A stretch of 64,000 nucleotides of DNA from Octopus sinensis (taxonomy: Eukaryota): positions 6,820,001-6,884,000 of the forward strand of contig NC_043010.1 in the NCBI RefSeq assembly GCF_006345805.1. Reading direction: 5' to 3'. Shown here piece by piece: positions 10,912 through 61,944 of the stretch. The first letter of the stretch is position 1. Each line of letters opens with the position of its first letter. The notes under the pieces are model-generated. The model had not been told where the DNA came from. It saw only the letters and a list, made by a program, of their open reading frames with translations, and did not search any database. The position numbers and the translations under genes are program-made.

Positions 10912-11658
10912 AGGCGGCTAGCTGGCAGAAACGTTAGCACGCCGGGCAAAATGCGTAGCCGTATTTTGTCTGCCATTACGTTCCGAGTTCAAATTCTGCC
11001 AAGGTCGACTTTGCCTTTCATCCTTTCGGGGTCGATAAATTAAGTACTAGTTACACACTGGGGTCAATATAATCGACTTAATCCGTTTGTCTGTCCTTGT
11101 TTGTCCTCTGTGTTGAGCCCCTTGTGAGTAGTAAAGAAATAGCTATTTCGTCTGCTGCTACGTTCTGAGTTCAAAATTCGCCGAGGTCGACCTTTCGGGG
11201 TCGATTAAATAAGTACCAGTTGTACACTGGGGTCGATATAATCGACTTAATCCGTTTGTCTGTCCTTGTTTATCCTCTCTGTGTTTAGCCCCTTGTGGGT
11301 AGTAAAGAAATAGGTATTTCGTCCTACACTGCGTTCTGAGTTCAAAATCCGCCGAGTTTGACCTTTCGGGGTCGATTAAGTAAGTACCAGTTGCACACTG
11401 GGGTCGATATAATCGACTTAATCCGTTTGTCTGTCCGTGTTTGTCCTATCTGTGTTTAGCCCCTTGTGGGTAGTAAAGAATTAGGTATTTTGTCTGCTGC
11501 TACGTTCTGAGTTCAAAATCTGCCGCGGTCGACCTTTCGGTGTCAATTAAATAAGTACCAGTTGCACACTGGGGTCAATATAATCGACTTAATCCGTTTG
11601 TCTGTCCTTGTTTGTCCCCTCTATGTGTAGCCCCTTGTGGGCAGTAAGGAAATAAGAA
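10912..11658 (+). mobile_element. Family C SINE whose body is tandemly amplified (~171-bp unit, 4 copies)
   Basis: One head ggcggctagctggcagaaacgttagc; the unit end g(t/c)agtaa(a/g)gaaat recurs at ~11128, 11299, 11470 and 11641. Confidence 0.9.
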
Positions 11659-17533: not shown

Positions 17534-17579
<46 letters not shown>

Positions 17580-17580
<1 letters not shown>

Positions 17581-18087
17581 AGAAATTCAAAAGATAGTGC
17601 TCATGGGAACTGCTCATATCCTACGCAAAATACTCTCTATGTAATCCCAAGGTTTAAAACAAACTTTTTTTTATGTATTAGACATTCACTAGTACAACAC
17701 CAAAAAAAAAAAAAAAAAAACCCAAATATATGGCACAGAACTTCCAACCTGTTGTCTCTTGAGGTCTCTGGGTGAGACTTGGAGCCAACTTGTACAGACA
17801 TAAGCAAAAGTCAAACATAGAATAATAATAATAATAATAATAATAATACAGAAATTCAAAAGATAGTGCTCATGGGAACTGCTCATATCCTACGCAAAAT
17901 ACTCTCTATGTAATCCCAAGGTTTAAAACAAACTTTTTTTTATGTATTAGACATTCACTAGTACAACACCAAAAAAAAACAAAAAACCCAAATATATGGC
18001 ACAGAACTTCCAACCTGTTGTCTCTTGAGGTCTCTGGGTGAGACTTGGAGCCAACTTGTACAGACATAAAGCAAAAGTCAAACATAG
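17580..18087 (+). mobile_element. Dong/R4-type LINE 3' end duplicated in tandem within (AAT)n (17580-17820 and 17849-18087)
   Basis: EIQKIVLMGTAHILRKILSM* matches the R4/Dong C-terminus (QK..LLGTA.ILRK.L); Dong elements are known to target TAA repeats. Confidence 0.85.
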
Positions 18088-18117
18088 AATAATAATAATA
18101 ATAATAATATAATAATA

Positions 18118-24457: not shown

Positions 24458-24637
24458 TGTGTAATGTTATAAAAACCACAAATCTTGTTAGATACGGCTA
24501 CTCAAGGTTTCCTGGTCGAAATAATAATCTATTTCACCACTTTTTAAGTTTAGAACAAGATTAGTGGTTTTTATTATAACATGGTATGTGTTGAGGCACA
24601 AAGCAAAATTAAAAATGTTTGCACTAAAAGACTGTGT

Positions 24638-24939
24638 GGAGGCACATGGCCTAGTTTTCAGAGCAGTGGACTCGTGGTTGAGGGATCGTGGTTCGAATCT
24701 CAGACTGGGCAATGTGTGTGGTTATGAGTGAAACATCTAAGCTCCACGTGACTCCAGCGGACGGTAATGACAAACTTCTGATGACTCTTTCACCACAACT
24801 TTCTTTCACTCTTTCCTCCTACATATAGCAGCTCACCTGTGATAGACCTGCATCTCATCAAGGTGGGGAACCTATATGCCACTGAAACCGGGAAACTGGT
24901 CCTTATGATCCATTCATGGCTCAAGAAGGAACAAACAAC
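24638..24939 (+). mobile_element. Same SINE family as 24155, in inverted orientation; 12-bp TSD
   Basis: TSD aaaagactgtgt at 24626-24637 and 24940-24951. Confidence 0.88.
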
Positions 24940-24974
24940 AAAAGACTGTGTAGATAAAACTTGCTTACAGGCTA

Positions 24975-25310
24975 TTATAATAATAATAATAATAATAATG
25001 GAATTATTGTATATAGTGCTCAGGTGCACCACAACTTGTCAAAAGTGCATATAAAGCATATGAAGTAATATACAAATGTTTGGAAAGTGAACAATGTATG
25101 AGTTAGATACATGCTTGCGTGTGAATGGAGGGGAGAAAATCAGGTGTAGTGTTGGCGAATCTCAGAAAGCATGGAAGTTTTGAAGGATGCAGTGCTCCGA
25201 CAACTAACAACTGATGCCAGCAGTTTGTTCCATATTTCAGCAACTCTTAGCGTGAAAAAATGTTTCCGAAAGTCATGGGAGCTGTGCTGTTTTCTGACTT
25301 TGTAAACCTG
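24975..25310 (-). mobile_element. 5'-truncated CR1-type LINE 3' end
   Basis: ORF2 end YKVRKQHSSHDFRKHFFTLRVAEIWNKLLASVVSCRSTASFKTSMLSEIRQHYT* (stop 25140-25142) fits R..FF..RV...WN.LP..VV....FK; (ATT)n tail. Confidence 0.85.
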
Positions 25311-28300
25311 TTGTAGGGGGTCATGGGAGCTGTGCTGTTTTCTGACTTTCTAAACATGTTGTAGGGGGTCATGGGAGCTGTGCTATTTTCTGACTTTGTA
25401 AACCTGTTGTAGGGGGTCATGGGAGCTGTGCTGTTTCCTGACTTTGTAAACATGTTCTAGGGGGTCATGGGAGCTGTGCTGTTTTCTGACTTTGTAAACA
25501 TGTTGTAGGGGGTCATGGGAGCTGTGCTGTTTTCTGACTTTGTAAACATGTTGTAGGGGGTCATGGGAGCTGTGCTGTTTTCTGACATTGTAAACATGTT
25601 GTAGGGGGTCATGGGAGCTGTGCTGTTTTCTGACTTTGTAAACATGTTGTAGGGGATCATGGGAGCTGTGCTGTTTTCTGACATTGTAAACATGTTGTAG
25701 GGGGTCATGGGAGCTGTGCTGTTTTCTGACTTTGTAAACATGTTGTAGGGGGTCATGGGAGCTGTGCTGTTTTCTGACTTTGTAAACCTGTTGTAGGGGG
25801 TCATGGGAGCTGTGCTGTTTTCTGACTTTGTAAACATGTTGTAGGGGGTCATGGGAGCTGTGCTGTTTTCTAACTTTGTAAACCTGTTGTAGGGGGTCAT
25901 GGGAGCTGTGCTGTTTCCTGACTTTGTAAACATGTTGTAGGGGGTCATGGGAGCTGTGCTGTTTTCTGACTTTGTAAACATGTTGTAGGGGGTCATGGGA
26001 GCTGTGCTGTTTTCTGACTTTGTAAACATGTTGTAGGGGGTCATGGGAGCTGTGCTGTTTTCTGACTTTGTAAACATGTTGTAGGGGATCATGGGAGCTG
26101 TGCTGTTTTCTGACTTTGTAAACATGTTGTAGGGGGTCATGGGAGCTGTGCTGTTTTCTGACATTGTAAACATGTTGTAGGGGGTCATGGGAGCTGTGCT
26201 GTTTTCTGACTTTGTAAACATGTTGTAGGGGGTCATGGGAGCTGTGCTGTTTTCTGACTTTCTAAACATGTTGTAGGGGGTCATGGGAGCTGTGCTGTTT
26301 TCTGACTTCGTAAACATGTTGTAGGGGATCATGGGAGCTGTGCTGTTTCCTGACTTTGTAAACATGTTGTAGGGAATCATGGGAGCTGTGCTGTTTCCTG
26401 ACTTTGTAAACATGTTGTAGGGGATCATGGGAGCTGTGCTGTTTCCTGACTTTGTAAACATGTTGTAGGGGATCATGGGAGCTGTGCTGTTTCCTGACTT
26501 TGTAAACATGTTGTAGGGGATCATGGGAGCTGTGCTGTTTCCTGACTTTGTAAACATGTTGTAGGGGATCATGGGAGCTGTGCTGTTTCCTGACTTTGTA
26601 AACATGTTGTAGGGGATCATGGGAGCTGTGCTGTTTCCTGACTTTGTAAACATGTTGTAGGGGATCATGGGAGCTGTACTGTTTCCTGACTTTGTAAACA
26701 TGTTGTAGGGGATCATGGGAGCTGTGCTGTTTTCTGACTTTGTAAACATGTTCTAGGGGGTCATGGGAGCTGTGCTGTTTCCTGACTTTGTAAACATGTT
26801 GTAGGGGGTCATGGGAGCTGTGCTGTTTTCTGACTTCGTAAACATGTTGTAGGGGATCATGGGAGCTGTGCTGTTTCCTGACTTTGTAAACATGTTGTAG
26901 GGGATCATGGGAGCTGTGCTGTTTCCTGACTTTGTAAACATGTTGTAGGGGATCATGGGAGCTGTGCTGTTTCCTGACTTTGTAAACATGTTGTAGGGGA
27001 TCATGGGAGCTGTGCTGTTTCCTGACTTTGTAAACATGTTGTAGGGGATCATGGGCTGTGTGTTTTCCTGACTTTGTAAACATGTTGTAGGGGATCATGG
27101 GAGCTGTGCTGTTTCCTGACTTTGTAAACATGTTGTAGGGGATCATGGGAGCTGTGCTGTTTTCTGACTTTCTAAACATGTTGTAGGGGGTCATGGGAGC
27201 TGTGCTGTTTTATGATTTTGTAAACCTGTTGTAGGGGGTCATGGGAGCTGTGCTGTTTCCTGACTTTGTAAACATGTTGTAGGGGATCATGGGAGCTGTG
27301 CTGTTTCCTGACTTTGTAAACATGTTGTAGGGGATCATGGGAGCTATGCTGTTTCCTGACTTTGTAAACATGTTGTAGGGGATCATGGGAGCTGTGCTGT
27401 TTCCTCCTGACTTTGTAAACATGTTGTAGGGGATCATGGGAGCTGTGCTGTTTCCTGACTTTGTAAACATGTTGTAGGGGATCATGGGAGCTGTGCTGTT
27501 TCCTGACTTTGTAAACATGTTGTAGGGGATCATGGGAGCTGTGCTGTTTCCTGACTTTGTAAACATGTTGTAGGGGATCATGGGAGCTGTGCTGTTTCCT
27601 GACTTTGTAAACATGTTGTAGGGGATCATGGGAGCTGTGCTGTTTCCTGATTTTGTAAACATGTTGTGGGGGATCATGGGAGCTGTGCTGTTTCCTGACT
27701 TTGTAAACATGTGGTAGGGGATCATGGGAGCTGTGCTGTTTTCTGACTTTGTAAACATGTTGTAGGGGGTCATGGGAGCTGTGCTGTTTCCTGACTTTGT
27801 AAACATGTTGTAGGGGATCATGGGAGCTGTGCTGTTTCCTGACTTTGTAAACATGTTGTAGGGGATCATGGGAGCTGTGCTGTTTCCTGACTTTGTAAAC
27901 ATGTTGTAGGGGATCATGGGAGCTGTGCTGTTTCCTGACTTTGTAAACATGTTGTAGGGGGTCATGGGAGCTGTGCTGTTTCCTGACTTTGTAAACATGT
28001 TGTAGGGGATCATGGGAGCTGTGCTGTTTCCTGAATTTGTAAACATGTTGTAGGGGGTCATGGGAGCTGTGCTGTTTCCTGACTTTGTAAACATGTTGTA
28101 GGGGATCATGGGAGCTGTGCTGTTTTCTGACTTTGTAAACATGTTGTAGGGGATCATGGGAGCTGTGCTGTTTCCTGACTTTGTAAACATGTTGTAGGGG
28201 ATCATGGGAGCTGTGCTGTTTCCTGACTTTGTAAACATGTTGTAGGGGATCATGGGAGCTGTGCTGTTTCCTGAATTTGTAAACATGTTGTAGGGGATCA

Positions 28301-30212
28301 TGGGAGCTGTGCTGTTTCCTGACTTTGTAAACATGTTGTAGGGGATCATGGAAGCTGTGCTGTTTCCTGACTTTGTAAACATGTTGTTGGGGATCATGGG
28401 AGCTGTGCTGTTTCCTGACTTTGTAAACATGATGTAGGGGATCATGGGAGCTGTGCTGTTTCCTGACTTTGTAAACATGTTGTAGGGGATCATGGGAGCT
28501 GTGCTGTTTTCTGACTTTGTAAACATGTTGTAGGGGGTCAAGGGAGCTGTGCTGTTTCCTGACTTTGTAAACATGTTGTAGGGGGTCATGGGAGCTGTGC
28601 TGTTTCCTGACTTTGTAAACATGTTGTAGGGGGTCATGGGAGCTGTGCTGTTTCCTGACTTTGTAAACATGTTGTAGGGGATCATGGGAGCTGTGCTGTT
28701 TTCTGACATTGTAAACATGTTGTAGGGGGTCATGGGAGCTGTGCTGTTTTCTGACTTTGTAAACATGTTGTAGGGGGTCATGGGAGCTGCTGTTTTTCTG
28801 ACTTTGTAAACCTGTTGTAGGGGGCATGGGAGCTGTGCTGTTTTCTGACTTTCTAAACATGTTGTAGGGGGTCATGGGAGCTGTGCTGTTTTCTAACATT
28901 GTAAACCTGTTGTAGGGGGTCATGGGAGCTGTGCTGTTTCCTGACTTTGTAAACATGTTGTAGGGGATCATGGGAGCTGTGCTGTTTCCTGACTTTGTAA
29001 ACATGTTGTAGGGGATCATGGGAGCTGTGCTGTTTCCTGAATTTGTAAACATGTTGTAGGGGATCATGGGAGCTGTGCTGTTTCCTGACTTTGTAAACAT
29101 GTTGTAGGGGATCATGGAAGCTGTGCTGTTTCCTGACTTTGTAAACATGTTGTTGGGGATCATGGAGCTGTGCTGTTTTTGACTTTGTAAACATGATGTA
29201 GGGGATCATGGGAGCTGTGCTGTTCCTGACTTTGTAAACATGTTGTAGGGGATCGGGAGCTGTGCTGTTTTTTTCTGACTTTGTAAACATGTTGTAGGGG
29301 GTCATGGGAGCTGTGCTGTTTTCTGACTTTGTAAACATGTTGTAGGGGGTCATGGGAGCTGTGCTGTTTTCTGACTTTGTAAACATGTTGTAGGGGGTCA
29401 TGGGAGCTGTGCTGTTTTCTGACTTTGTAAACATGTTGTGGGGGTCATGGGAGCTGTGCTGTTTTCTGACTTTGTAAACATGTTGTGGGGGGTCATGGGA
29501 GCTGTGCTGTTTTCTGACTTTGTAAACATGTTGTAGGGGGTCATGGGAGCTGTGCTGTTTTCTGACTTTGTAAACATGTTGTAGGGGGTCATGGGAGCTG
29601 TGCTGTTTTCTGACATTGTAAACATGTTGTAGGGGGTCATGGGAGCTGTGCTGTTTTCTGACTTTGTAAACATGTTGTAGGGGGTCATGGGAGCTGTGCT
29701 GTTTTCTGACTTTGTAAATTGTTGTGGGGGGTCATGGGAGCTGTGCTGTTTTCTGACTTTGTAAACATGTTGTAGGGGGTCATGGGAGCTGTGCTGTTTT
29801 CTGACTTTGTAAACATGTTGTGGGGGGTCATGGGAGCTGTGCTGTTTTCTGACTTTGTAAACATGTTGTAGGGGGTCATGGGAGCTGTGCTGTTTTCTGA
29901 CTTTGTAAACATGTGTGGGGGGTCATGGGAGCTGTGCTGTTTTCTGACTTTGTAAACATGTTGTAGGGGGTCATGGGAGCTGTGCTGTTTTCTGACTTTG
30001 TAAACATGTTGTAGGGGGTCATGGGAGCTGTGCTGTTTTCTGACTTTGTAAACATGTTGTAGGGGGTCATGGGAGCTGTGCTGTTTTCTGACTTTGTAAA
30101 CATGTTGTAGGGGGTCATGGGAGCTGTGCTGTTTTCTGACATTGTAAACATGTTGTAGGGGGTCATGGGAGCTGTGCTGTTTTCTGACTTCGTAAACATG
30201 TTGTGGGGGGTC
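25272..30212. repeat. 48-bp tandem satellite, ~103 units, derived from CR1 ORF2 plus flank
   Basis: Unit gtcatgggagctgtgctgttttctgactttgtaaacatgttgtagggg; 4941 bp / 48. Confidence 0.98.
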
Positions 30213-30266
30213 CTTCTCTATAGTCTGTGATTCCCTCGCTGTATCATTGAATCATGGAGAACTTAC

Positions 30267-30320
30267 CACAGTTCTTCTTCTGCTCACCTCTTCTCCTTTT
30301 GTCTTTGCTTTGCTTTTTGG
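30267..30320 (-). CDS. Candidate 54-nt internal exon (phase 1-1: xKKQSKDKRRRGEQKKNC)
   Basis: Branch-like tactaat, acceptor gacaaag|, consensus donor TG|gtaagt; length divisible by 3; purine-rich. Confidence 0.35.
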
Positions 30321-30904
30321 CTTTGTCACAAAAATTCAGTGTTCATAAGAGATTAGTAACTAATGGTCATTTTCAATTTGTTTTCTCCAGTAATGTTAAA
30401 AGTAGTAAGATCAATTGAATATATACATTACAGCTAGATGTAAATGGTATATATTTCACTAAGATATTTTCTAATTCCAGCTATCTAATTATTTTTGTCA
30501 TTGTAATTTCCTATTCTTTTCATTATCATGCTCTGCTGATACTTTTCTTTTACCACACCAGACACACTCAGTTTCTCTCTCACCCATTCTCTTACTTTTA
30601 ATGCTAATTTACATATTTTATCATTAAATACATTACATTTCTCCTCTCCTGCAGTGTTTTGGCTTTATCTTTCAGTCTCATTTCACACTTAGGTGCTAAT
30701 TGCTTTTGGGGAAAGGCATGAACGTCCTAACACCCATTCCCACCCACAAGGCGGAATGACAGATGAGTTTGACTATGAACAGTAGTAAAGCAATTGACTT
30801 TATTTATTACTCTTCTGTGAAATAAATACACTATTGATCGAAAGATGTGTGCATGTGTGTTTGTGGAAATACATGTATAAATTTACACATGTATATGTGT
30901 GTGC

Positions 30905-45415: not shown

Positions 45416-45895
45416 TGTGTGTTTGTGTGTGAGTATGTGTTTTTGTGAATGCATGTATGTGTATGAATATATATATACGCATACACACACGTGTGTCTGT
45501 ATTTGGCTGAGTGAATATATGTGTCTGTACGTATCTGTGTGTTTGTGTGTGAGTATGTGTTTTTGTGAATGCATGTATGTGTATGAATATATATATATGC
45601 ATACACACATGTGTGTGTATTTGGCTGAGTGTATATATGTGCCTGTACGTATCTGTGTGTTTGTGTGTGAGTATGTGTTTTTGTGAATGCATGTATGTGT
45701 ATGAATATATATATACGCATACACACATGTGTGTGTATTTGGCTGAGTGTATATATGTGTCTGTACGTATCTGTGTGTTTGTGTGTGAGTATGTGTTTTT
45801 GTGAATGCATGTATGTGTATGAATATATATACGCATACACACATGTGTGTGTATTTGGCTGAGTGTATATATGTGTCTGTACGTATCTGTGTGTG
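45416..45895. repeat. ~118-bp tandem repeat x4 built from microsatellite-like sequence
   Basis: gtatttggctgagtg..ctgtacgtatc recurs at ~118-bp spacing. Confidence 0.92.
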
Positions 45896-47236
45896 TGTGT
45901 GTGGGTGTGTGTTTACCTTCACATAATCACAATAACAAATAATACTTCACACACCGGCAATATTTGCATAGAAACGTACAATAACTATTGCTGTTTAAGC
46001 CTACATTTATGTGTATGCATAAATACATACATTGCAGTATAAAAACTATTAGTATATGAATGTTTATATATGTATATATATGTGTGTGTGTGTGTGTGTT
46101 GTGTGTGTGTGTACATACATTAGTGTATGAGAATGATTCGGCTTTTGCCAGCCTCTTTAGGTCAGTTCATTGTCAACGTGCGTGAACATTATTTCATGCA
46201 TGTATTCATTACATTCTCATTCAGTGCGGAATTTTGCGTTAACCGACCTATTACATTAACATTTCCATTGAAGTCACCTATGCATTTACCAACATCACAC
46301 ACAATATAAGAACACTCACTGCAAAATGTTACACAATATACATCGCTTATGGGCTCTCTTCACTGAATAATTAGCTAGAGTTTTACATACTTTACCAATT
46401 TCCTTTTATAGCTACATGTCTTCATGTAGCCATAGACCAAATGTTGCAATATGTTTTACTTAAAATATAAACATTCTTGCATTATTTCACCACACACACA
46501 CACACTTAACTTGTACAGAAAGCAGAAGTCAGCCTCACATAAACACTTCATAAAAAGTGATATAACAGCTATGTCAAACATGCCAATACCTCAGATCCAG
46601 AAAAATTATACCAAAAGAAAAGGGGAAAAAAAAATCCATGGTAAAAAGAAAACCCCTGTAACAAACAAACAAATATTCTTGAAAAATCAGTTAGAATTGC
46701 TTGTATACAAGGTTTCAAGTGATCTGGATGATTGCTGGAAAGTAAACAAAACACAGTGCTCCTCCTTACAGCCAGATTATGTATCGTACGATCCCTAGGC
46801 AATTAAATTCCTAGAAAAGAAATCTCTTTTCTCAACAAAATTTTAATTCTTCTGTTATTGATTTGTCTCATAATCTTCATGCAAAACACTAGACATTCAA
46901 ACTAAATATTACACACACACAAACACACATACACACACATGTGTTTGTGTGTTTGTGTATATATGTGAGTGTTTCTCTGTGTGTGTATGATATTTATATA
47001 TATGTACACATGTCTGCATAATACATATATGTATATATATGTGTGTATATATATATATATGTTTATATATGTATATATATATATACGTACATAAGTGTGT
47101 GTGTATGTGTGTATGTGCGCATATGCACATACATAACCACAAACTTTAACATTTGCATGTACATGTTTACATATGATACACATATATATATGCATATATA
47201 TATATACATATATGCATCCATCTACATACCCACTCC

Positions 47237-53315: not shown

Positions 53316-53780
53316 TTTGTATGATGATTATCAGAAAAAGGAAATTTTAATGAAAATTATTTTCTGACTAGCAGTCTGATTTGAATAGCACTTAAATTAC
53401 ATATACAACATAAAAATCACTGGTGAAACTGCTACTGTTTATTCAAAGGTTACAATTAATCATCCTGAGCAGCTGAAGAAATGATTGCTAGAGGGGGGCT
53501 ATACATCAGAACAAGTATACAACATTGATGAAACTGCATTTTCAGTGAAGCTTGTTAGAACTTTTATTCTTTGAGTATAAAATTCAACATCCATATTTGA
53601 AGTATCCAAAAATTATCTGACAATTCTATGTCGAAATGCAGCATATAATAGAAAATTAAAGCCCTTTCTTGTGTATCTCTCTAAAAATCCGAGGGCTTTA
53701 AAGGGTTACACAAAGTTCAAGTTGCCTCTGATTTGGTGTTCACATAAGAAGGTATGGATAACTAAGAGTCTTCCCAGAAA

Positions 53781-54121
53781 GTGGTTCCGGGTTCAGTCCC
53801 ACTGCGTGGCATCATGGGCAAGTGTCTTCTGCTATAGCCCCGGGCCGACCAATGCCTTGTGAGTGGATTTGGTAGACGGAAACTGAAAGAAGCCTGTCGT
53901 ATATATGTATGTGCGTGTGTTTGTCCCCCTAGCATTGCTTGACAACCGATGCTGGTGTGTTTATGTGTCCATCACTTAGCAGTTCGGCAAAAAGAGACTG
54001 ATAGAATAAGTACTGGGCTTACAAAGAATAAGTCCCGGAGTCGATTTGCTCGACTAAAGGCAGTGCTCCAGCATGGCCGCAGTCAAATGACTGAAACAAG
54101 TAAAAGAGTAAAAGAGTAAAA
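53781..54121 (+). mobile_element. Family A SINE inside the Tigger fossil
   Basis: tggttccgggttcagtccc...gtaaaagagtaaaa. Confidence 0.92.
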
Positions 54122-56045: not shown

Positions 56046-57666
56046 ACTTTGATACTTTGATAGGTTTCGGCCATTATTGGCCCAGGCCATGTCTAACTTA
56101 ATAGCACCACCTGGTGAAGTCTTCAAGTCAGAATTTGGGCACTATGGCCCACTCAAGTAGAGAGTTATTGTTTACAGAGACATATCCGGGTGTAGGGGGT
56201 TTATCCGGGATTTCTTGAAGGAATCTGTCCAAAGACTTCTTGAACCCTATAGGGTCAGTTTCTGTTTTATTGTGTTTTGGTGTAATGTTAAAGAGAGCGG
56301 GGCCAATTGAGGTGAAATAATTGTGCCGTATTGTTGTTATGAGATGAGAGTGCGATTTTTTTTTTTGGCGGATGGCACGGGGCCCAACCTTGGATGTACC
56401 TTGAAGGTGATGCCAACAATCATTTGGGCAATGCTGATGGAATATTTTCCACATCATGCAGATGAGTAGCGCTCACGACGACGTTGGAGAGAATAGAGTT
56501 TTAGCTTTTCTAGTCGACCCCATAGTCGAGGCCTGTCATGCCATCTATCTTTTTTGTGATTGCCCTTTGAGGTGCTTCAACTTTTATGATACCTTGTATT
56601 GTGTGGGGAGACCACAGTGGACAACAGTATTCAAGGTGGGGTCGGGCAAAAGTGGAGAAGAGAAGGATAATGGTGTGGATATCTCTCGACTGGAAAGTTC
56701 TGAGAATCCAGGAACACATTCTGCGGGCCATGTCAACTTTGGTGTTTATATGAGTGGCCCAGCTTATGTTGTTGTCCACAATTACTCCCAGTCTCTGATG
56801 TTGTTGGACGCCGCGAGAGTTTCACCTGAAGGAAGGGAGTATGGAGTTTCAGGGCATCCTCTTTTCCAAAGTGGATTAGCTCAAATTTTCCTCGTTCAGC
56901 AGCATATTGTTTTTTTCTGCCCATTGATAACACCAGTAGATCTGACTGAAGGCATGTCCGGTCACTCGCCTCATTATGACCTTCTGTAGCTTGGAGTCAT
57001 CTGCAAAGATTTTTATGTTGCTGTGCTTGATGATGTCATTAATGTCATTAATGTAAATGATGAAAAGAAGTGGGCCCAGCACAGTGCCTTGCGGAACGCC
57101 ACTACTGACTTTGGCTGGGCTTGATTTTACCCCCCTTCAACTACAACATGTTGAGATCTGTCTGTCAGGAAACACTTGATCCATTCATCAGTAACTTTCC
57201 AGAGACACCAATGTTGGATAGTTTTTTCAATAGGATCTTGTGATCGACCCTGTCGAAGGCCTTACTGAAATCAAGGTAGATGACATCGGTGTTGGAGCCC
57301 TCTCCCAAAGCTCTCAAAATGTCCTCAAAGTGATGCAGGAGCTGCGTTAGGCAGTCCCTTCCATTACGGAACCCATGTTGGTTGGAGATCAGCCATCTGT
57401 GCTTTCCAGAAATTGGGTTATTCGAGATCTCACCACCCTCTCAATACCTGATGATATGAGAGTGAGTGAGATTGGACGGTAATTCACTGCAAGGGACTTG
57501 TTTCCCTTTTTGAAAACTGGGACAACAGACTGGGACAGAAGGTTTTTTGGAATATAGCCAGCATCCAGTGAGTTTCTCCACAGATTAGCAAGGGAGATGC
57601 AAGTTGGTGTCGACCAACCTTCAGGACACAAGCAGGGAACCTAATCGGGGCCTACTGCTGAATTGT
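56045..57666 (-). mobile_element. 5'-truncated CR1-clade LINE with RT domain, frameshifted
   Basis: PVFKKGNKSLAVNYRPISLT; YLDFSKAFD; GVPQGTVLGPLLFIIYINDI..FADDSKL; RPHLEYCCPLWSP; FKKSLDRFLQEIPDKP; (ATCAAAGT)2 tail. Confidence 0.95.
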
Positions 57667-61479: not shown

Positions 61480-61695
61480 CTAATATCTTATATGAGAATT
61501 GTGGTGTTATGAGCCAGGCTATGTTGTAGGGAAGGGCTGGAAGTGAGGGAGTGCGTATGTCCTGTTGAAAGTGGGGCCTGTGGGTCCCATCAGAAGGGAT
61601 GCCGTAGTGGGCATGTGGTGGGGTTGGTGAGGTGCAAGCAGCCAGTCGGTGTTGGACAGCGTTTGGGAGTAGATGTGTCAGATGGTACAGCAGTA
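61480..61695 (-). mobile_element. GC-rich fragment, possibly from an I/Nimb-type LINE
   Basis: ..HMLCLLLYHLTHLL..PSLPALPYNIAWLITPQFSY loosely resembles the post-RT PPW region. Confidence 0.3.
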
Positions 61696-61944
61696 GACAG
61701 AGCATGTGGATGTTGTGAGTGACCCTTCCAGATCGAGACAGAGCATGTGGACATTGTGAGTGACCCTTCCAAATCGAGATAGAGCATGTGGACGTTGTGA
61801 GTGACCCTTCCAGATCGAGACAGAGCATGTGGACGTTGTGAGTGACCCTTTCAAATCAAGATAGAGCATGTGGACGTTGTGAGTGACCCTTCCAGCTCAA
61901 GACAGAGCATGTGGACGTTGTGAGTGACCCTTCCAGATCGACAG
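61696..61944. repeat. 41-bp minisatellite x6
   Basis: Unit gacagagcatgtggacgttgtgagtgacccttccagatcga. Confidence 0.95.

What the first reader, a model, noticed from the sequence alone, without database searches (positions are those of the whole stretch)
25272..30212. A 4.9-kb satellite born at the 5' truncation junction of a CR1 LINE
Seen: the first unit is continuous with the CR1 ORF2 end (KVRKQHSSHD|FRKHFF). About 39 bp of each 48-bp unit is LINE coding sequence (HVYKVRKQHSSHD) and 9 bp (ttgt(a/g)gggg) is extra. The array ends ...ttgtggggg-GTC-cttctc, and each unit begins GTC-atggg. Inference: the unit is the LINE 5' end plus adjacent flank, first duplicated through a 3-bp GTC microhomology and then amplified ~100 times. 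The terminal ttgtGgggg variant is concentrated near the right edge (from ~29435), as expected for the ancestral form. The origin of this satellite is therefore readable base by base.
Basis: partly seen in the sequence, partly recalled or inferred. Interest (0 to 1): 0.75.

Follow-up and report, generated by a model that had tools for sequence, protein, structure and literature searches.

The report
Minisatellite born at a LINE junction
A 48-base piece made of the broken end of a jumping gene plus 8 neighbouring bases is repeated about 100 times at one spot, likely after a chance duplication and later uneven copying; it is a tidy, readable case of a well-known way short repeats arise.

Summary
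The array is real: 103 units of 48 bp at 25272-30212. Each unit is 40 bp of a 5'-truncated CR1-group LINE plus 8 bp that 0 of 29 other copies carry. The unit-to-unit junction occurs only here (72 of 72 genome hits). Contigs of three public runs from two studies also hold it, so it is not an assembly artefact, although the count of 103 is unverified. The terminal G form is ancestral: five runs, up to 1.6% diverged, keep G there. LINE-like units sit at both edges and derived units fill the centre. Not shown: that the 8 bp are pre-insertion flank (no empty site found; they may be extra bases added at insertion), that the 3-bp GTC match caused the duplication (about 5-6% by chance), and a single-unit allele. 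It is a single-locus minisatellite of a known kind (transposon-derived, short-direct-repeat model). A side result may deserve more attention: a mobile sub-lineage of this LINE with a tandemly doubled 3' end, clustered on three small contigs.

The parts
24974..24999 (-). (ATT)n-type 3' tail of the LINE insertion
   Evidence: sequence; the same tail follows other copies
25000..25139 (-). 3' UTR of the LINE
   Evidence: window 25000-25311 matches dispersed copies at about 95-96%
25140..25311 (-). C-terminal remnant of ORF2 of a 5'-truncated CR1-group LINE; its last 40 bp (25272-25311) are the LINE part of unit 1
   Evidence: translation; a longer copy has an RVT_1 domain and ends with a closely matching C-terminus
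25272..30212 (.). tandem array, 103 units of 48 bp plus a final GTC
25272..26327 (.). left zone, units 1-22, mostly LINE-like (G1, T22)
   Evidence: A1 in 2 of 22, C22 in 2 of 22
26328..29300 (.). central zone, units 23-84, derived variants A1 and C22; block repeat units 62-65 = 78-81
   Evidence: A1 in 47 of 62, C22 in 46 of 62
29301..30209 (.). right zone, units 85-103, LINE-like; holds 5 of the 6 G44 linkers
   Evidence: A1 0 of 19, C22 0 of 19, G44 5 of 19
30162..30201 (-). LINE part of the terminal unit = the true 5' truncation end of the insertion
   Evidence: joined to the flank in one contig in 5 runs
30202..30209 (.). 8-bp non-LINE linker in its ancestral G form (flank or bases added at insertion; unresolved)
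30210..30212 (.). GTC, the 3-bp direct repeat that matches the start of every LINE-like unit
   Evidence: sequence; GCC in run X20
30213..30890 (.). right flank; single-copy over the part searched (30195-30420)
   Evidence: 1 match in G000; covered by 5 runs

Best explanation
This is a single-locus 48-bp minisatellite whose unit joins the last 40 bases of a 5'-truncated CR1-group LINE to 8 non-LINE bases; it likely began as a tandem duplication across the old insertion junction, guided by the 3-bp GTC repeat, and likely grew by unequal exchange and conversion between units. Steps: (1) a short LINE copy inserted (shown). (2) The 48 bp between the two GTCs were duplicated by slippage or microhomology repair (inferred). 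(3) The inner copy changed G to A at unit position 44. Because that site lies only 7 bp from the end of shared sequence, later misaligned exchanges would copy the A form and leave G in the last unit (ancestral G shown, mechanism inferred). (4) Newer A1/C22 variants spread through the centre, partly as multi-unit blocks, while the edges kept the LINE-like form (pattern shown). It is most likely neutral DNA with no function.
For: LINE part and truncation point. Linker not in the LINE: 0 of 29 copies. Junction only at this locus: 72 of 72 and 3 of 3 pattern hits. LINE end, linker and flank in one contig in X18, X19, X20, X3 and X1, none differing at 30205. Unit-to-unit junction contigs in X18 and X19 and X1 (loose end after 30212). 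Zoning: 16 type switches versus 50 in 20,000 shuffles, none reaching it; polarity set by the other LINE copies. Block repeat of units 62-65 at 78-81. Another locus of the family shows an internal 337-bp unit x4 with a 3-bp GCA match at its ends (L085). The short-direct-repeat model is established (PMC6947457, PMC3389668, passages).
Against: A 3-bp match is weak (5-6% by chance) and shorter than the 5-10 bp of the Haber and Louis model as cited in PMC3389668. No empty site and no single-unit allele was seen. X3 and X20 list no junction-spanning piece among their 8 longest. But their flank contigs stop with the 31-mer ending at 30205 and at 30211, where further units would branch off, so the array may be there too and its timing is open. 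Internal G44 units were not seen in run contigs. 0 of 58 other copies has a junction-straddling array, so this is a single event.
Confidence: 0.7

Rival explanations
1. Same history, but the linker (8 bp, perhaps up to 16 bp including GTC) is extra sequence added while the LINE's 5' end was joined, not pre-existing flank. This changes the reader's 'LINE plus flank' label, not the later amplification.
For: About half of zebrafish ZfL2-2 copies carry 5' extra nucleotides, and CR1-clade target duplications peak at 3-5 bp (PMC4245944, passages). A 4-bp candidate duplication, CTAT, lies at the tail edge and at 30218-30221 (visible).
Against: A 4-bp match is at chance level (shuffled pairs give 4 or more in 1934 of 2000). 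There is no empty site to compare.
Confidence: 0.4
2. The first duplication was made during insertion: reverse transcriptase or repair polymerase re-primed 48 bases back, and only the later growth was by unequal exchange.
For: The duplication sits exactly at the 5' junction. No single-unit allele was shown, and the contig ends in X3 and X20 hint at further units. Ahmed and Liang report 136 human repeats with a partial Alu duplicated at the element's 5' end (PMC3389668, section 3.4).
Against: X3 and X20 list no junction-spanning piece over 40 bp, while X18 and X19 list several. 0 of 58 other copies shows such a junction duplication.
Confidence: 0.15
3. The array was already inside a source element or transcript and was copied here by retrotransposition, truncated at GTC.
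For: This LINE family does move tandem repeats: a doubled 3' end occurs in 13 of 14 fetched loci with differing 5' ends.
Against: All 72 junction hits lie in this array. The terminal unit differs from inner units in a way conserved across 5 runs.
Confidence: 0.04
4. The array is an assembly artefact or is greatly inflated in length.
For: The region has residual errors: a G after 30707 is present in 5 of 5 runs and absent here, and indel units cluster on the right.
Against: Junction contigs exist in 3 runs of 2 studies. Their summed word depth is about 40 times (X18) and 23 times (X19) that of the flank contig, a rough hint of tens of units, not a copy number. Structured, zoned variants are unlike errors.
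Confidence: 0.05

Closest known systems
Transposon-derived minisatellites in human (7,276 repeats; Ahmed and Liang 2012, PMC3389668; passages and section 3.4 read)
   Same: Single-locus tandem repeat cut from a retroelement; 136 of their cases duplicate part of an Alu at the element's 5' end; 300 have 5-20 bp flanking direct repeats.
   Different: Here the unit straddles the element's edge and includes non-element bases, the direct repeat is only 3 bp, and the copy number is about 100, whereas most of their unexplained cases have two units. I did not open their supplementary table, which may hold edge-straddling cases.
Haber and Louis short-direct-repeat model of minisatellite birth (seen only as cited in PMC6947457 and PMC3389668)
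   Same: Unit bounded by a short direct repeat, with the last unit followed by that repeat; later growth by slippage, conversion or unequal exchange.
   Different: The repeat is 3 bp rather than 5-10 bp, and one copy of it lies outside the LINE.
CR1-derived tandem repeats of chicken (HinfI repeat; Cen2, 3, 4, 7, 11), as tabulated in PMC9659126 and PMC6947457 (passages)
   Same: Tandem repeat containing CR1 ORF2 3' sequence.
   Different: Those are listed as satellite DNAs, some centromeric; this is one 4.9-kb locus with a 48-bp unit.
Microhomology-mediated tandem duplication in fission yeast (bioRxiv 10.1101/2020.03.03.972455; abstract and outline only)
   Same: Same proposed first step.
   Different: There the duplications are reversible single events; here the duplicate was amplified about 100-fold.

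Membership tests
Transposon-derived minisatellite (single-locus VNTR) | head-to-tail units of 10-100 bp | tested here: met
   103 units of 48 bp
Transposon-derived minisatellite (single-locus VNTR) | unit sequence comes from a dispersed mobile element | tested here: met
   40 of 48 bp match the LINE in 29 other copies
Transposon-derived minisatellite (single-locus VNTR) | confined to one locus | tested here: met
   72 of 72 and 3 of 3 exact pattern hits lie in this array; the tool's counts are lower bounds
Transposon-derived minisatellite (single-locus VNTR) | copy number varies between individuals | tested here: inconclusive
   depth ratios differ between runs (40, 23), but summed contig depth is no copy number
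Short-direct-repeat (Haber and Louis) origin | direct repeat of 5-10 bp bounding the unit | tested here: not met
   only 3 bp (GTC), 5-6% by chance; it works like the model but falls below its stated length
Short-direct-repeat (Haber and Louis) origin | single-unit ancestral allele in a relative | tested here: inconclusive
   X3 and X20 show no long junction piece, but their contig ends hint at branches
Classical satellite DNA | long or multi-locus arrays, usually heterochromatic | tested here: not met
   one 4.9-kb locus; chromatin state not testable
CR1-group non-LTR retrotransposon (parent element) | ORF2 with reverse transcriptase | tested here: met
   RVT_1, E=3.6e-16, in copy L053
CR1-group non-LTR retrotransposon (parent element) | APE-type endonuclease in ORF2 | tested here: inconclusive
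   not reached in the copies fetched; the closest full-length homolog P0001 (56% identity) carries PF14529 and PF03372, which I recall as exo/endo/phosphatase families
CR1-group non-LTR retrotransposon (parent element) | short 3' UTR ending in a simple-repeat tail; frequent 5' truncation; no long target duplication | tested here: met
   about 140-bp UTR and (ATT)n tail; truncations spread over the 3' 1.6 kb; longest shared flank word 9 bp or less in 47 of 47 copies
CR1-group non-LTR retrotransposon (parent element) | placement in the CR1 clade proper (not L2 or other sister clades) on a reverse-transcriptase tree | not tested
   no labelled reference set was at hand; all 9 rows with a named animal source among the 120 listed are stork proteins at 34-36% identity, and bird LINEs are mostly CR1 (recalled)

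The most novel reading that the evidence does not exclude
This CR1-group family is a recurrent factory of tandem DNA: G-rich scars left at 5' junctions can seed minisatellites such as this one, and a sub-lineage with a doubled 3' end retrotransposes its own tandem repeats, grows new inner arrays, and inserts preferentially on a few small chromosomes. The locus would then be a dated, polarised natural record for measuring how a minisatellite is born and turns over.
Probability: 0.15. Interest if true: 0.55.

Novelty: new member of a known kind. Interest (0 to 1): 0.27.

Why it matters
The first step of minisatellite birth is usually erased. Here the other LINE copies give the ancestral state of 40 of 48 bases and the terminal unit keeps the ancestral linker, so the order of mutations in the array can be read. 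That makes it a good teaching case and a possible marker for measuring array turnover. It shows no new mechanism and no function, and thousands of transposon-derived tandem repeats are catalogued in human.

Tried and rejected
Empty site: runs X12 and X9 (organism C) do not cover the flank next to the junction, and raw run X22 laid only 2 partial reads, so neither informs. X1 showed one junction contig at 3.5 times flank depth; other fragments may be too short or filtered, so it gives no copy number. 'Single unit in X3 and X20' was my first reading. I withdrew it to 'unresolved' because their contigs end where further units would branch, and no other copy in G000 explains that branch. Linker as a 5-bp micro-inversion of the next LINE bases: 0 of 47 copies shows an exact one and 0 of 61 loci has LINE hits in both orientations, so it is disfavoured; the same test on the window junction itself did not run properly (its anchor was not found in the reference copy). 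Target duplications: no long ones; shared words of 6 bp or more in 24 of 47 copies versus 588 of 2000 shuffled pairs, a modest excess that I cannot separate from local base composition; 14 of 61 loci were left out as tandem, split, duplicate or untruncated. Coding role: the array has long open frames on the minus strand, as any stop-free 48-bp unit does, and they are broken by stops and indels; no RNA run was offered as a holder (a DNA-kind search). Host gene context: 15 picked frames of the 173 listed gave only a DDE and an RT fragment, so whether the array is intronic is unknown. Stable DNA hairpin: -1.5 and -7.2 kcal/mol, nothing notable, no shuffle control. PDB search of the RT piece: 0 hits. 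Earlier findings near this place or with these words: none.

Full report
Observation. TRF finds period 48, 103.1 copies, 96% matches at 25272-30212, and my split gives 103 units. On the minus strand unit 1 continues in frame into ...HSSHD FRKHFFTLRVAEIWNKL...QHYT*, then a 140-bp 3' UTR and an (ATT)n tail at 24974-24999.

The parent element. Window 25000-25311 matches dispersed copies at about 95-96%; 40 of 2343 candidates were scored. A longer copy (L053) holds a 327-residue frame with an RVT_1 domain, E=3.6e-16, and a closely matching C-terminus. Its closest full-length homolog is 56% identical. All 9 rows with a named animal source among the 120 listed are stork proteins at 34-36%. This fits the CR1 group, but no clade tree was built. 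The window remnant differs from the column majority at 13 of 310 sites (4.2%), against a median of 2.3% for 58 other copies, which were picked as best scorers and so lean low.

Anatomy of the unit. In 29 other copies the sequence after ...ACATGT continues as LINE (CCA in 26 of 29); none has the linker. The unit is therefore 40 bp LINE plus 8 bp non-LINE. The best match of linker plus GTC in a 1.66-kb copy is 8 of 11. The unit-to-unit junction pattern has 72 hits in the genome, all in this array, and a second pattern has 3 of 3. The right flank is single-copy over the stretch searched.

Other samples. Of 8 runs laid, 5 cover the junction: X18, X19, X20, X3 and X1. In each, one contig joins LINE end, linker and flank, and none differs at 30205, so G is the ancestral base at unit position 44, while all but 9 of the 103 units have A. 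X3 and X20 share five flank differences that the other three runs lack, and each differs from the window at 11 listed sites, about 1.6%, so the insertion predates that split. Two wrinkles: X18 and X3 have A at the neighbouring 30206, and X20 has GCC in place of GTC. Contigs across the unit-to-unit junction are present in X18, X19 and X1, from two studies; X1 may be the source sample. Their summed word depth is about 40 and 23 times the flank contig in X18 and X19, a hint of tens of units only. X3 and X20 list no piece over 40 bp apart from the flank contig, which would fit a single unit. But their flank contigs stop with the 31-mer ending at 30205 and at 30211, which is where more units would branch off. 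The age of the array relative to the split is therefore open. No empty site was found: X12 and X9 do not cover the flank and X22 laid 2 partial reads.

History inside the array. The other LINE copies fix the ancestral state at positions 1 and 22. Derived A1 occurs in 2 of 22 left, 47 of 62 central and 0 of 19 right units; derived C22 in 2, 46 and 0. There are 16 type switches against 50 expected, and none of 20,000 shuffles reached 16. Units 62-65 recur as 78-81. This is the pattern expected from unequal exchange or conversion acting mostly in the centre (inference). G44 units are 50, 88, 93, 95, 97 and 103, enriched at the right (p=0.003), but indels are enriched there too, no internal G unit showed in run contigs, and all five runs add a G after 30707 that the assembly lacks.

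Mechanism. Best reading (0.7): duplication of the 48 bp between two GTCs after insertion, then growth by unequal exchange. The GTC match is real but weak, since 3 bp or more occurs at 5-6% of random breakpoints. One other locus of the family has an internal 337-bp unit x4 with a 3-bp match at its ends (L085). Whether the linker is old flank or was added at insertion is undecided. About half of zebrafish ZfL2-2 copies carry 5' extra nucleotides, and CR1-clade target duplications peak at 3-5 bp (PMC4245944, passages); only a chance-level 4-bp candidate is visible here. Junction-straddling arrays are rare in the family: 0 of 58 other copies, while 3 of 58 carry head-to-tail arrays of the 3' end (the search may favour tandem copies).

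What is known. Transposon-derived minisatellites are well described. Ahmed and Liang list 7,276 in human, 300 with 5-20 bp direct repeats and 136 with a partial Alu duplicated at the 5' end (PMC3389668, passages and section 3.4; supplement not opened). Two reviews give the short-direct-repeat model and CR1-derived repeats in chicken (PMC6947457, PMC9659126, passages). A yeast preprint describes microhomology-mediated tandem duplication (abstract and outline). The listings of six literature searches showed no title or abstract start on this locus or on an edge-straddling LINE minisatellite in octopus; subscription papers are not covered.

Side result. Two 3'-end arrays on different contigs share nearly the same tail-to-body junction. 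A pattern for it has 22 hits, 15 of them on C27-C29, which together are about 59 Mb of 2.72 Gb. Of 14 hits fetched, 13 show a LINE tail followed by a copy restarting at reference position 1314-1319, with differing 5' ends and unlike immediate flanks; one (L102) also holds 10 or more copies of a 132-bp inner unit. This suggests a mobile sub-lineage that carries its own tandem repeat. It does not explain the 48-bp array, which has no second locus.

Verdict. Observation confirmed, interpretation partly supported, new member of a known kind, interest 0.27.

Noticed in passing
G000 C27-C29 and others; L054, L062, L090-L103: A sub-lineage of the same LINE with a tandemly doubled 3' end (about 355 bp; 2-6 copies) and varied 5' truncation points. 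15 of 22 pattern hits lie on three small contigs (about 2% of the genome); 13 of 14 fetched show the tandem junction. It may be a mobile tandem element with a regional bias.
   Followed up: partly
L102 (G000:C29:8584800-8587800), also L101 and L103: A 132-bp inner segment of the LINE (reference 1415-1546) repeated 10 or more times inside a copy of that sub-lineage; the array runs off the fetched stretch.
   Followed up: no
L085 (G000:C30:11376500-11381500) and L086 (G000:C2:195542500-195548000): Separate tandem arrays of LINE pieces: 4 x 337 bp with a 3-bp match at the unit ends, and 3 x 340 bp from tail to body.
   Followed up: partly
window 24626-24951: A SINE-like insertion bounded by a 12-bp direct repeat at 24626 and 24940, ending about 22 bp left of the LINE tail; the SINE label is from recall.
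   Followed up: no
window 11022-11654, 17552-18114, 45416-45914, 61695-61941: Four more tandem arrays (171 x 3.7, 269 x 2.1, 118 x 4.2, 41 x 6). The first overlaps a repeat dispersed in the window, so repeat-derived tandem copies are common here.
   Followed up: partly
window 30707: All 5 runs that cover it have one more G, which points to a homopolymer error in the assembly.
   Followed up: yes
window 53581-53859 and 56879-57136: Fragments of a DDE_1 transposase and of another reverse transcriptase.
   Followed up: no
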